DNA of 64,000 nucleotides, taken from NCBI RefSeq assembly GCF_057098645.1, contig NZ_CM169472.1; one strand, 5' to 3'. Below are positions 26,501 to 29,500 of this stretch, piece by piece (the first letter of the stretch is position 1; each line of letters starts with the position of its first letter). Position numbers: made by a program.

Positions 26501-29500
26501 GTATCTAAAAAATAGTATTTTTGAAATGGGTCTAAGAACACAACAATGTACAAATGAGAAGTTATCTTTTAATATGTTCAAAGACCCATTAGGATTGATA
26601 TCAGTTATGTTAGCTAGATTGATAAAGTGATTACATATTTTCTGTTATATGCTGAAATGAATAATGCTATTCCAGAGTGCAGCAGAGAAAGTCTCCTGAT
26701 GATTGAGCTCTGGAAATTGTACAATAGAAAAATTACTGTATTTTTCTGTCAAAATATTTCTCAAAACAGATTCCGCTTTGATGGCTTCAGGATATAAAGA
26801 TGCGGAGTAATCAAGGCTAAGATTTCCGTTAAGCAAGCATATACTTTTAGTGTGCTTTGATTCTGATATATCATCTTTAATTATCTTGATGATTCTTTCA
26901 TTCTGCCATAGAAGTGATGGTGCAGATATATAATAATAGTTAAAGCATGAATTATTTTTTAAGCAATCAAGCACAAAAATAGCACCTAGCGAGTGCCCCC
27001 ATATACCGATTCTGGAACTGTTCGGAGCAATAGTACTAACCCATGGCATGATCTGAGTTAGTAATAATTCTCGGAAAGACTGGCTTCCTCCACCAGTAAA
27101 GTAGATCCATGCTGGTTTAGAGTTATCAACAATAGCATTTTCACCATCAGGAGTATAATCGTAAGCACGGCGATGAATGCTAAGGTTATTCCAAGATTCA
27201 TAACCAAGTGTAACTAACACTGGTGGATTGGGTAGTGCATCAATAACAGGCAGAATATCAGAAATGTAATTGTTGGCACTATTCCCATCAAGTATATAAA
27301 GAGTTGCATTATTTTTTTTAATGTTTTTTGGAGTAAAAATACATATTTTATATTTGGTGTCATGGTTAATTGAGTTAAATATGCGTGTTTGACAATGAAT
27401 GTCCATATGTTTAGTCATGCGTTCTCCCCATGAGCATTAAAGGATGCTTAAGATATGCTATGTCACTGATAAAAAATTTGTTGTGTGTGTTTAGTTATTT
27501 TATCTACCTCCATTATGATTTAAGACTGATATATGTTATCAGCAAAGGTACATCGTTATTATTTTACCTGTCAATACATTTGATATTGATTATCGTTTAC
27601 ATCGCTTGCTTAGGAAATTGAAGGCAGGTAACTATCATGTCAATGAACTAACCCACAGTCTAACGTACTTCTTTCCCCAATCACCAACAACCAAATTCCT
27701 GTTATCACCACTGGGATTTTGGCGCAACTTCATGGTGCAGAGGTAAATAGCATCAAGCAAAATCTCTTTTTCCGTTGTTGTCCTTATGGGACGTCTGTCT
27801 TTCTGACCGATTTCATATTGGCGAGGTAATGGGAAGTTAAGTAGAATAGCTGCGGGTGCTTGAGGCTATCTGCCTCGGGCATGAACACCAACGGCAGATA
27901 GAGAAAAGCCCCAGTTAACATTACGCGTCCTGCAAGACGCTTAACATTAATCTGAGGCTCAATCTATGAACGGCAAATCTAGGTTAGCCTCTTACGTGCC
28001 GAAAGGCAAGGAGAAGCAGGCTATGAAGCAGCAAAAGGCGATGTTAATCGCCCTGATCGTCATCTGTTTAACCGTCATAGTGACGGCACTGGTAACGAGG
28101 AAAGACCTCTGCGAGGTACGAATCCGAACCGGCCAGACGGAGGTCGCTGTCTTCACAGCTTACGAACCTGAGGAGTAAGAGACCAGGCGGGGGAGAAATC
28201 CCTCGCCACCTCTGATGAATCAGGCATCCTCAACGCACCCGCACTTAACCCGCTTCGGCGGGTTTTGTTTTTTCCTGGCATTCTGGTTTACAATTCGCAC
28301 GCCAGCCTGAACAACTGGCACCTGCTGCGCCAGCAGAGACAACCGATGGCGCACGATACCAAATTATACAATTCTGATGATTCTGCCGTCTTTGCCAGCA
28401 GGCGCGGACGGTGTTTTCACGCATTCAAATCTGACTGGTACCAGCATCCCCCATGCACTGAAGAACAGGCCGAATGGCTCATTCAGTGTTACCGCAGGCG
28501 CGGATGCGAGGTTAAAAAAGCCCTTAGCCTCGACTACCGTCACTGGATAATCTCCGTCAGGCTCCCTTACTCCGAACGGCCACCGCGTCCGTCCCGCACA
28601 TTCCAGCAACGGATCTGGAGGTAATGTGCGGGTATTACTTCGACCTGTTCTGGTACCGGAACTCGGTCTGGTTATCGTTAAGCCAGGCCGTGAATCCATG
28701 CGGGTATTTCATGGCGGCAGGGTGCTGGTGGAGTCTGAACCGAAAAGCATGCGTAATCTGCCGTCCGGGGTCGTTCCTGCCGTTCGCCAGCCGCTGGCGG
28801 AAGATAAATCATTACTGCCATTTTTCAGCAATGAGCGTGTGATTCGTGCTGCTGGTGGCGCTGGTGCACTGTCTGACTGGTTATTACGTCACGTTAAATC
28901 CTGCCAGTGGCCTCATGGTGATTACCACCACAGCGAAACCGTCATACATCGTTACGGTACCGGCGCGATGGTGTTGTGCTGGCACTGCGACAACCAGCTG
29001 CGCGACCAGACATCCGAATCACTTGAGCAACTTGCTCAACAAAACCTGTCAGCATGGATGATTGACGTCATCCGCCACGCAATGAATGGCACACAGGAAC
29101 GGGAATTATCGCTGGCTGAATTATCCTGGTGGGCAGTCTGCAATCAGGTGGTGGACGCATTACCTGAGGCAGTATCGCGTCGTTCTCTGGGATTACCGGC
29201 GGAAAAAATCCGCTCCGTATACCGTGAAAGCGACATCATACCGGGAGAACAGACCGCCACCAGCATACTGAAGCAGCGCACAAAAAATATTGCGCTACCG
29301 CCTCACACCCACCAGCAACAGAACCCACCACAGGAAAAGACGGTGGTCAGCATTGCCGTTGATCCGGAGTCTCCGGAATCCTTCATGAAACGACCTAAAC
29401 GTCGCCGCTGGGTAAATGAGAAATACACACGCTGGGTAAAGACACAGCCGTGTGCGTGTTGTGGTAAGCCAGCGGACGATCCTCATCATCTGATTGGTCA

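What the first reader, a model, noticed from the sequence alone, without database searches (positions are those of the whole stretch)
27850..28272. hok-type toxin locus carried by the prophage
A HokD/RelF-identical 51-aa toxin with an in-frame upstream extension and a terminating hairpin. No relBE genes precede it, unlike the Qin arrangement, so it is a second independent addiction module in this prophage.
Basis: partly seen in the sequence, partly recalled or inferred. Interest (0 to 1): 0.4.

Follow-up and report, generated by a model that had tools for sequence, protein, structure and literature searches.

The report
Complete hok/mok/sok toxin cassette in prophage
This is an intact copy of a long-known small toxin plus antisense-RNA antidote cassette (hok/sok family) sitting in an E. 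coli prophage; it is real, correctly spotted, very common, and its closest relative has already been studied experimentally.

Summary
Window 27854-28273 (+) is a complete hok/mok/sok type I toxin-antitoxin cassette. It has a 51-aa Hok identical to K-12 HokD, and a 19-codon in-frame upstream extension that is the mok reading frame. It also has a 5' leader that scores 107 bits against Rfam RF01794, a 5'-3' fold-back (tac/fbi) pairing and a terminator. On the minus strand there is a 71-nt Sok gene (27974->27904) with promoter TTGCCT-17-TAACCT.

K-12 Qin keeps only the part from 15 nt upstream of the hok ATG onward. K-12 is therefore the truncated form and this copy is the intact one. No relBE precedes it.

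The cassette is 93.8% identical to mokW-hokW-sokW of Stx phage 933W/Sp5. That locus was annotated in the 933W GenBank record and shown experimentally in 2021 to be a working type I TA that helps phage release after induction. Full-length copies occur in 4018 of 5426 complete E. coli genomes.

The same prophage also carries paaR2-paaA2-parE2, so "second TA module" is correct. "Addiction" is not established.

Verdict: already known and ordinary. The only mildly new point is a hypervariable segment at the Sok 5' end / mok codons 1-3.

The parts
27818..27847 (+). hok promoter-like site: TTGGCG - 18 nt - TAGAAT. The -10 is conserved in relatives; the -35 region is not.
   Evidence: Consensus scan. 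A TATAAT-like -10 lies about 7 nt upstream of the conserved GGGTGCTTGAGG start across the family. Conservation among phage copies begins at about 27834.
27854..28273 (+). Predicted full-length hok mRNA (about 420 nt).
   Evidence: The 5' end is placed by homology to the conserved family 5' end. The 3' end is the terminator. MFE is -172.9 kcal/mol with z = -7.7 against shuffles.
27854..27865 (+). tac element (GGGTGCTTGAGG). It pairs with fbi in the full-length RNA, with ucb in the 3'-truncated RNA, and locally in a 5' metastable hairpin (27856-27882) in the nascent RNA.
   Evidence: Folds. Covariation.
27908..27912 (+). ucb (GCCCC). It pairs with dcb in the full-length RNA and with tac in the truncated RNA.
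   Evidence: The tac-ucb helix is 99.4% paired in 130 loci, with one compensatory pair UA:120 / CG:9.
27904..27974 (-). Sok antisense RNA gene (71 nt by homology to the annotated sokW). It has a short single-stranded 5' end, a long hairpin and a U-rich tail, and overlaps the mok start by 9 nt.
   Evidence: sokW is annotated at the equivalent position in phage 933W (alignment). The 80-nt minus-strand stretch 27975->27896, which contains it, folds at -33.3 kcal/mol, z = -5.2. K-12 sokC/mokC has the same 9-nt overlap geometry.
27981..28009 (-). Sok promoter: -35 TTGCCT (28009->28004), 17-nt spacer, -10 TAACCT (27986->27981).
   Evidence: The sequence from 27980 to the hok ATG is identical to 933W/Sp5. 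The promoter-less primer YO-421 of PMC8621323 changes exactly this -10 and abolishes antitoxin activity. The simple consensus scan did not list this site.
27954..27991 (+). dcb / mok Shine-Dalgarno (GAGGC, 27954-27958) and the Sok-target hairpin that contains the mok AUG (loop 27970-27977).
   Evidence: The hairpin forms only in the 3'-truncated fold. It is the third hairpin of the Rfam consensus. The five basal pairs are essentially invariant in 130 loci.
27966..28178 (+). mok reading frame: 70 codons, in frame with hok and sharing its stop codon.
   Evidence: A 19-codon in-frame extension is kept in 64 of 66 phage-borne copies. It starts at the same offset in the HokD-like loci of other genera. 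mokW and K-12 mokC/hokC are built the same way.
28023..28178 (+). hok toxin gene (51 aa), preceded by its SD AGGAG at 28009-28013.
   Evidence: 100% identical to K-12 HokD, 92% to HokW and 42% to R1 Hok. Pfam PF01848 E = 3e-23. Annotated hokD by PGAP in identical genomes.
28160..28166 (+). TTACGAA around the Tyr47 codon (TAC, 28161-28163): a candidate TadA A-to-I editing site (Tyr to Cys).
   Evidence: Read directly from the sequence. The preprint 10.1101/2025.08.07.668861 states that hokD mRNA is edited at this Cys46-equivalent position. In alignment A3 relatives carry either TAC-G or a hard-coded TGY here. Editing itself was not tested.
28228..28240 (+). fbi element (CCTCAAcGCACCC), complementary to tac with one bulged C.
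   Evidence: It is paired to nt 1-12 in the MFE of the full-length RNA. There are 12 Watson-Crick pairs, better than with any of 14 foreign tac variants. Covarying pair UA:69 / CG:40.
28247..28273 (+). Intrinsic terminator of the hok mRNA (AACCCGC-TTCG-GCGGGTT followed by a T run).
   Evidence: Shared with K-12 hokD.

Best explanation
The region is an intact, self-contained hok/mok/sok type I toxin-antitoxin cassette of the hokD/hokW subgroup, carried in the early-right (replication-to-Q) region of a CP-933P-like lambdoid prophage.

Mechanism (inferred from sequence and from the family's known behaviour):
1. A weak promoter makes a stable hok mRNA of about 420 nt. Its first 12 nt (tac) pair with a 3' element (fbi), and its ucb box pairs with dcb, which includes the mok ribosome-binding site. 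The full-length RNA is therefore neither translated nor bound by Sok.
2. Slow 3' trimming removes fbi. tac then pairs with ucb, and dcb folds into a hairpin that exposes the mok start.
3. mok translation is needed for hok translation.
4. A 71-nt unstable antisense RNA, Sok, is made from the opposite strand (promoter TTGCCT-17-TAACCT). It covers the mok start region and blocks or destroys the activated mRNA.
5. When the Sok supply stops, Hok (51 aa, inner-membrane toxin) is made and depolarises or kills the cell.

The trigger with direct experimental support in the nearest relative (hokW-sokW of Sp5/933W) is prophage induction, where Hok accelerates lysis and doubles phage release. Loss of the element (addiction) and transcription shut-off by an infecting phage are other possible triggers.

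Shown here: the presence and integrity of every sequence element. Inferred: expression, RNA processing and the biological role.
For: Toxin:
- 51/51 aa identical to K-12 HokD, Pfam HOK_GEF E = 3e-23.

Leader:
- Rfam RF01794 107.1 bits against a gathering score of 59.

RNA folding:
- The full-length RNA MFE pairs nt 1-12 with 28228-28240 and ucb with dcb, z = -7.7.
- The 3'-truncated RNA refolds to tac-ucb plus a hairpin carrying the mok AUG.
- The nascent 5' part forms a local hairpin that sequesters tac.

Family covariation over 130 hok loci from many Enterobacterales and phage contigs:
- 85% of cells are paired for tac-fbi plus ucb-dcb, against 32-51% when partners are slid. One compensatory pair is UA:69 / CG:40. 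The covariation score exceeds all 500 shuffles.
- tac-ucb is 99.4% paired.
- A locus's own tac fits its own 3' UTR better than foreign tacs in 80 of 83 loci.

Sok:
- The minus-strand RNA has a long hairpin and a U-rich tail, z = -5.2.
- Its promoter and the whole 27980-28025 stretch are identical to 933W/Sp5, where sokW is annotated.
- Mutating this same -10 abolished antitoxin activity in Sp5 (PMC8621323).

mok:
- The in-frame 19-codon extension is conserved in 64 of 66 phage copies, and matches mokW and mokC.

Cassette boundaries:
- Conservation drops outside about 27834-28270.

Role:
- The hokW-sokW experiments.
Against: - There are no expression data for this copy.
- The hok -35 region is weak and not conserved.
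- The Sok promoter hexamers match the consensus poorly (TTGCCT 4 of 6, TAACCT 3 of 6) and were not picked up by the scan.
- Native chromosomal hokA, hokB and hokC loci did not give PSK or rifampicin activation (summarised in 10.1101/2025.08.07.668861).
- This prophage has an IS3-family insertion splitting its replication-organizer gene. A phage-release role may therefore be moot for this copy.
- The first ~15 nt of Sok differ from sokW, so behaviour cannot be assumed identical.
Confidence: 0.88

Rival explanations
1. Main role is addiction. The cassette stabilises the prophage by killing cells that lose or excise it, because Sok decays faster than hok mRNA.
For: This is the canonical function of the R1 hok/sok homolog, and all regulatory elements needed for it are intact here. 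The 933W GenBank annotation calls hokW "prophage maintenance". The cassette occurs as a discrete module in many prophages and large plasmids.
Against: PSK has never been shown for a prophage-borne hokD/W-type locus. Native chromosomal hokA, hokB and hokC loci failed PSK tests. Deleting hokW-sokW from Sp5 gave no growth phenotype, and the reported effect was on induced lysis. Genomes carry a median of 2 and up to 9 related copies. If their Sok RNAs cross-react, losing one copy would not be lethal.
Confidence: 0.25
2. Main role is defence. The cassette acts as an abortive-infection switch against superinfecting lytic phages that shut off host transcription, so that Sok decays and Hok kills the infected cell.
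For: [quoted passage not shown]
Against: The same preprint found no enrichment of hok near defence systems. The R1 effect was weak and used a high-copy plasmid. No data exist for the hokD/W subgroup.
Confidence: 0.15
3. The sequence is intact but the cassette is biologically silent. It is a selfish, hitch-hiking module kept by recombination among lambdoid prophages, with no phenotype in this IS-damaged prophage.
For: Chromosomal hok loci have been reported inactive. The prophage's replication gene is interrupted by an IS element. The cassette is extremely widespread and nearly identical across genomes, which fits recent horizontal spread as well as it fits selection.
Against: Every regulatory element is preserved, with compensatory changes across the family. 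The mok frame is kept open in 64 of 66 copies. The 93.8%-identical hokW-sokW is demonstrably active.
Confidence: 0.2

Closest known systems
mokW-hokW-sokW of Stx2 phage 933W / Sakai prophage Sp5 (GenBank AF125520; Takada et al. 2021, PMC8621323)
   Same: 93.8% DNA identity over 416 nt. Both have a 70-codon in-frame mok, and Hok is 47/51 identical. The tac, ucb, Sok hairpin, Sok promoter, hok SD and fbi are identical. Both are phage-borne.
   Different: Four C-terminal Hok residues differ. The ~15 nt after the mok AUG (the Sok 5' end) differ at about half the positions. 933W diverges right after fbi and lacks this terminator. In 933W the cassette sits at the far right end of the genome, beyond the tail genes. 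Here it lies between the replication genes and DUF968-rusA-Q.
hokD (relF) of the K-12 Qin prophage, third gene of relB-relE-hokD
   Same: Identical hok ORF, 3' UTR, fbi and terminator (98-100% identity from 28009/28010 to about 28266). A DUF968 (ydfU) gene and a Q-family antiterminator gene lie downstream in both, with a small non-homologous ORF (rem in K-12) between hok and DUF968.
   Different: K-12 lacks everything upstream of 15 nt before the hok ATG. It has no hok promoter, tac, ucb, mok start, Sok gene or Sok promoter. relE ends 71 nt upstream instead. K-12-type truncated hits cover only 60% of the cassette and are the minority.
hok/mok/sok (parB) of plasmid R1, the family paradigm
   Same: The same set and order of elements: tac, metastable hairpin, ucb, Sok target, dcb/mok SD, Sok promoter overlapping the hok SD region, fbi. 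The core motif TAGCCTCTTAC-N10-GCAAGGAG is shared.
   Different: Hok is only 42% identical. R1-type mok starts 1 nt further upstream and reads in the +1 frame, ending 4 nt before the hok stop, whereas here mok is in frame. R1 is plasmid-borne with proven PSK.
mokC-hokC(gef)-sokC of the E. coli K-12 chromosome
   Same: mok is in frame, 19 codons longer than hok, and shares its stop codon. Sok overlaps the mok start by 9 nt. This is the same geometry as here.
   Different: It belongs to a different Hok subgroup. It lies in the chromosomal backbone rather than a prophage. The K-12 copy has IS186 immediately next to it.

Membership tests
hok/mok/sok type I toxin-antitoxin family (Pfam PF01848, Rfam RF01794) | Small (~50 aa) Hok/Gef membrane toxin ORF | tested here: met
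   PF01848 E = 3e-23, 81.6 bits against a cut-off of 22. 51/51 identical to HokD.
hok/mok/sok type I toxin-antitoxin family (Pfam PF01848, Rfam RF01794) | Conserved hok mRNA 5' leader (the Rfam 'sok' model, which is written on the hok-sense strand) | tested here: met
   107.1 bits against a gathering score of 59, covering model positions 1-157 in full, at 27854-28028 on the + strand.
hok/mok/sok type I toxin-antitoxin family (Pfam PF01848, Rfam RF01794) | Overlapping mok reading frame that starts upstream of hok and reads through it | tested here: met
   70-codon ORF at 27966..28178. It is conserved in 64 of 66 phage copies and in HokD-like loci of other genera. Translational coupling itself cannot be tested here.
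hok/mok/sok type I toxin-antitoxin family (Pfam PF01848, Rfam RF01794) | Antisense Sok RNA gene with its own promoter and terminator, overlapping the mok translation-initiation region | tested here: met
   Minus-strand hairpin plus U-rich tail, z = -5.2. It is colinear with the annotated sokW. The promoter sequence is identical to the one inactivated experimentally in Sp5. Transcription of this copy was not tested.
hok/mok/sok type I toxin-antitoxin family (Pfam PF01848, Rfam RF01794) | Long-range 5'-3' fold-back (tac-fbi) that locks the full-length mRNA | tested here: met
   Present in the MFE and the centroid structure. There are 12 Watson-Crick pairs with one bulge, better than any of 14 foreign tac variants. 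Family covariation is UA:69 / CG:40, and the score exceeds all 500 shuffles.
hok/mok/sok type I toxin-antitoxin family (Pfam PF01848, Rfam RF01794) | Alternative pairings ucb-dcb (inactive form) and tac-ucb plus target hairpin (active form) | tested here: met
   Folds of the full-length and truncated RNA. tac-ucb is 99.4% paired with one compensatory pair.
hok/mok/sok type I toxin-antitoxin family (Pfam PF01848, Rfam RF01794) | 3' processing of hok mRNA, differential RNA stability, and killing when Sok is lost (PSK) | not testable with these tools
   Needs a rifampicin chase with Northern blots and a plasmid- or prophage-loss assay.
relB-relE-hokD (relBEF) operon arrangement of the Qin prophage | relB and relE immediately upstream of hok, with hok lacking its own leader and sok | tested here: not met
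   Homology to K-12 starts at 28009/28010. No RelB/RelE ORF lies upstream. The only ParE/RelE-superfamily toxin is 7.7 kb away, in paaR2-paaA2-parE2.
hokW-sokW subgroup (phage 933W/Sp5) | Close sequence homology over the leader, the in-frame mok, hok and fbi | tested here: met
   93.8% identity over 416 nt; alignment A2.

The most novel reading that the evidence does not exclude
The ~15-20 nt segment just after the mok AUG (27964-27980) is at once the 5' recognition end of Sok, the loop and upper stem of its target hairpin, and mok codons 1-5. The proposal is that this segment is a diversified specificity determinant. It would allow the several hokD/W-type cassettes that coexist in one genome (median 2, up to 9) to be controlled independently, without cross-protection by each other's Sok RNA. 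It is the most variable 10-nt block inside an otherwise 90-100% conserved cassette. At least 15 variants occur among phage copies, while Hok stays nearly invariant and the mok frame stays open. Relaxed constraint on a loop and a leader peptide explains the same pattern equally well.
Probability: 0.25. Interest if true: 0.4.

Novelty: already known. Interest (0 to 1): 0.12.

Why it matters
It matters little beyond correct annotation. The useful points are three. First, this copy shows what K-12 hokD/relF looked like before its 5' half was replaced by relBE. Second, PGAP annotates only hokD here, so mok, Sok and the mRNA elements go unmarked in thousands of genomes. Third, a pathogenic E. coli prophage carries two unrelated TA modules, paaR2-paaA2-parE2 in the immunity region and hok/sok upstream of Q. 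This bears on prophage stability and on induction and lysis timing in Shiga-toxin-producing (STEC) lineages. If the variable Sok 5' segment proved to be a specificity code, it would explain how many hok/sok paralogs coexist in one cell.

Tried and rejected
1. The simple sigma-70 scan did not list the Sok promoter, because TTGCCT and TAACCT fall below its thresholds. I relied instead on sequence identity with the experimentally mutated sokW promoter.

2. A first tac/fbi test allowed G-U pairs and compared against shuffled tac sequences. It did not discriminate (own score about 11-12 of 12, shuffled mean about 10, maximum 12). I replaced it with a Watson-Crick-only test of own versus swapped tac and with the count of structure pairs.

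3. The Rfam 'sok' hit lies on the + strand, which could be read as Sok being encoded in the sense direction. This reading is rejected. The model ends at the hok AUG and represents the hok leader, and 933W annotates sokW on the opposite strand.

4. A sub-threshold Rfam isrK match at 28187-28268 (27 bits against a gathering score of 50) is not accepted as an identification. It covers the hok 3' UTR hairpins.

5. I looked for a genome containing the whole window. None covers more than 86% of a 25-kb stretch. The prophage is a mosaic, and O26:H11 11368 differs by an IS1203 insertion in the esterase-like gene.

6. I compared co-resident copies in the four genomes represented twice in the phage set. 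All four pairs differ in the variable segment. Chance alone predicts about 91% of pairs differing (from the frequencies), so this is uninformative.

7. The upper part of the Sok-target hairpin scored poorly in the 130-sequence alignment. The cause is indels misaligning the columns, and I do not take it as evidence against the hairpin.
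Full report
**1. Observation**

ORF 27966..28178 (+) encodes 70 aa. 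Its C-terminal 51 aa, starting at the ATG at 28023, are 51/51 identical to K-12 HokD, and the DNA is identical to K-12 across the whole ORF. The protein matches Pfam HOK_GEF at E = 3e-23. The 19 upstream codons are in frame. A G+C-rich hairpin at 28247-28264 is followed by a T run. The region 27854-28028 matches Rfam RF01794 ('sok') at 107.1 bits, well above the gathering score of 59, over the full model. None of this is a chance pattern.

**2. Anatomy**

*Strand of the Rfam model.* The Rfam model is written on the hok-sense strand, since it ends at the hok AUG. The + strand hit therefore identifies the hok mRNA leader, not the Sok strand.

*5' end.* The family-wide 5' end GGGTGCTTGAGG (tac) starts at 27854, 7 nt after a TAGAAT -10 element.

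*Three folds of the mRNA:*
- Full-length RNA (27854-28272): MFE of -172.9 kcal/mol, z = -7.7. Nucleotides 1-12 pair with CCUCAAcGCACCC at 28228-28240 (fbi), and GCCCC (ucb, 27908-27912) pairs with GAGGC (dcb, 27954-27958), which is also the mok Shine-Dalgarno.
- RNA lacking the 3' end (27854-28226): tac pairs with ucb, and dcb moves into a hairpin (27954-27991) that carries the mok AUG. This reproduces the Rfam consensus structure.
- The first 132 nt alone: tac is held in a local hairpin.

These three states match the published folding pathway of hok mRNAs. That pathway is established knowledge of the family, from Gerdes and co-workers; I recalled it rather than re-deriving it.

*Sok.* On the minus strand the sequence reads TTGCCT (28009->28004), a 17-nt spacer, TAACCT (27986->27981). 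An RNA follows with a short free 5' end, a long hairpin and a GGGGCUUUU tail. The 80-nt minus-strand stretch 27975->27896 that contains it folds at -33.3 kcal/mol, z = -5.2.

**3. Comparison with K-12**

Homology to the Qin prophage begins at 28009/28010, only 15 nt upstream of the hok ATG, and runs through the terminator. K-12 has relE ending 71 nt upstream. It lacks the promoter, tac, ucb, the mok start, the Sok gene and the Sok -35. What follows from it is that K-12 hokD is the truncated derivative and this copy is the intact form. A DUF968 gene and a Q-family antiterminator gene lie downstream in both, with RusA between them in the window only and a small non-homologous ORF (rem in K-12) between hok and DUF968.

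**4. Closest relatives**

- The cassette is 93.8% identical over 416 nt to mokW-hokW-sokW of Stx2 phage 933W and of Sakai prophage Sp5.
- In the 933W GenBank record, mokW is a 70-codon in-frame ORF. sokW is a 71-nt minus-strand RNA whose coordinates map to window 27974->27904.
- From 27980 to the hok ATG the two sequences are identical, so the Sok promoter is the same.
- Takada et al. 2021 (PMC8621323) showed four things. HokW is toxic. sokW expressed from its own promoter neutralises it. Mutating the -10 abolishes this; their primer YO-421 changes TAGGTTAGCC to CCGGCTCGCC, which is the TAACCT hexamer. After mitomycin C, sokW RNA disappears, HokW accumulates in the inner membrane in a RecA-dependent way about an hour before endolysin, and deleting the locus halves phage release.
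- K-12 mokC/hokC has the same in-frame, shared-stop layout, and sokC overlaps mokC by 9 nt, exactly as here.
- R1 Hok is 42% identical. R1-type mok starts 1 nt further upstream and reads in the +1 frame.

**5. Family-wide support for the RNA elements**

- A pattern from the Sok-promoter/hok-SD core (TAGCCTCTTAC-N10-GCAAGGAG) retrieved 92 stretches from species-representative genomes, mostly Enterobacterales.
- In an alignment of 130 distinct hok mRNAs (A3), the tac-fbi and ucb-dcb pairs are 85% paired, against 32-51% when the 3' partners are slid by 1-3 columns. One clear compensatory pair is U-A in 69 sequences and C-G in 40. The covariation score was reached by 0 of 500 shuffles.
- tac-ucb is 99.4% paired, with a compensatory U-A:120 / C-G:9.
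- Independently of any alignment, each locus's own tac fits its own 3' UTR better than foreign tac variants do in 80 of 83 loci (10.3 against 8.9 Watson-Crick pairs of 12). For the window the score is 11.5, against 8.5-10.5 for foreign variants.
- The sequences are related, so these figures are support rather than probabilities.

**6. How common it is**

The 438-nt cassette is found at 80% coverage or more in 4018 of 5426 complete E. coli genomes. The median is 2 places per genome and the maximum is 9. In 431 records the best match is 99% identical or better. K-12-type truncated hits cover only 60% of the cassette. The cassette occurs in 110 GenBank phage records, annotated variously as mokW/hokW/sokW, "host killer protein" or "gef: phage maintenance protein". 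Copies of about 87% identity occur on plasmids of roughly 80-220 kb. PGAP annotates hokD at this exact sequence. A 2025-26 preprint already reports enrichment of hok in prophages (10.1101/2025.08.07.668861). The finding is therefore already known in kind and in detail.

**7. Context and the "second addiction module" claim**

The prophage integrase lies at 14553..15572 (-), next to yccA. The immunity region carries PaaR2 (HTH, 20547..21047), PaaA2 (PF21217, 20338..20529) and ParE2 (PF05016, 20048..20338), all on the minus strand. This is the three-component TA of the cryptic prophage CP-933P (PMC8630535). The hok cassette is thus indeed a second, unrelated TA module in the same prophage.

"Addiction" is another matter. 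No PSK data exist for this subgroup, native chromosomal hokA, hokB and hokC loci failed PSK tests, and the only functional data point to induction-linked lysis. This prophage also has an IS3-family element (22320-23633, with inverted repeats and transposase ORFs) that splits its replication-organizer gene. Productive phage release is therefore doubtful for this copy, and a purely selfish persistence cannot be excluded.

**8. One feature beyond the textbook picture**

Among 87 distinct phage-borne copies, conservation defines a cassette of about 27834-28270. Inside it, the most variable 10-nt block is 27964-27973, with mean entropy 1.11 bits against 0-0.8 elsewhere. At least 15 variants of the segment after the mok AUG occur, while Hok is nearly invariant and the 19-codon mok extension stays open. 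This segment is simultaneously the Sok 5' end, the loop and upper stem of the target hairpin, and mok codons 1-5. It could be a specificity determinant separating co-resident cassettes, or simply the least constrained part of the locus. The four same-genome pairs I could check all differ, but chance predicts that about 91% of the time. I rate the specificity reading at about 0.25.

**9. Verdict**

Novelty: already known. Interest: low.

Noticed in passing
window 20048-21047 (-), with 21416-21841 (+): A three-gene paaR2 (HTH repressor) - paaA2 (PF21217) - parE2 (PF05016) toxin-antitoxin module sits in the prophage immunity region, next to a YdaT-type gene on the other strand. This is the arrangement of cryptic prophage CP-933P, described as a bistable switch in PMC8630535.
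   Followed up: partly
window 22320-23633: An IS3-family element is inserted in the phage replication-organizer gene. It has two overlapping transposase ORFs on the minus strand (HTH_Tnp_1 and rve domains) and 33-nt imperfect terminal inverted repeats. The N-terminal part of the split gene is 21907..~22300 and the C-terminal part is ~23640..24319. The prophage is probably replication-defective.
   Followed up: partly
window 26200-27800: A low-GC island (30-35% against about 53% in the flanks) lies directly upstream of the hok cassette. It carries a 257-aa esterase / alpha-beta-hydrolase-like ORF (26645..27418, minus strand, GHSLG motif, weak PF00756 hit) and looks like a moron insertion. In O26:H11 11368 the same gene is split by IS1203.
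   Followed up: partly
window 27964-27980: This is the most variable segment inside the otherwise highly conserved hok cassette: at least 15 variants among 105 phage-borne copies. It corresponds to the Sok 5' end, the target-hairpin loop and mok codons 1-5. It may set Sok/hok specificity between co-resident copies, or it may simply be unconstrained.
   Followed up: partly
window 28160-28166: TTACGAA surrounds the Hok Tyr47 codon (TAC). This is the motif reported to be A-to-I edited by TadA (Tyr to Cys) in hokB, hokC, hokD and hokE mRNAs. In the 130-locus alignment, relatives carry either TAC-G or a hard-coded TGY Cys codon at this position.
   Followed up: partly
window 28187-28268 (+): There is a sub-threshold Rfam match to isrK, a Salmonella prophage (Gifsy-1) sRNA (27.1 bits against a gathering score of 50, E = 0.004). 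It covers the two hairpins of the hok 3' UTR, upstream of the Q-antiterminator region. It could be chance, or a distant relationship between hok 3' ends and IsrK-type RNAs.
   Followed up: no
window 32754-33003 (+): Three tRNA genes lie downstream of the Q antiterminator: anticodon CAT (annotated tRNA-Ile in O26:H11), Arg-TCG and Arg-TCT. This is the arrangement seen in Stx-phage late regions, but no stx genes are annotated after them in the matching O26:H11 11368 prophage.
   Followed up: no
locus L013 (Photorhabdus thracensis), 1369-6137: Six tandemly spaced HokD-like hok/mok/sok cassettes lie within about 5 kb of one chromosome. Each has an in-frame mok, and they differ mainly in the segment after the mok AUG.
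   Followed up: no
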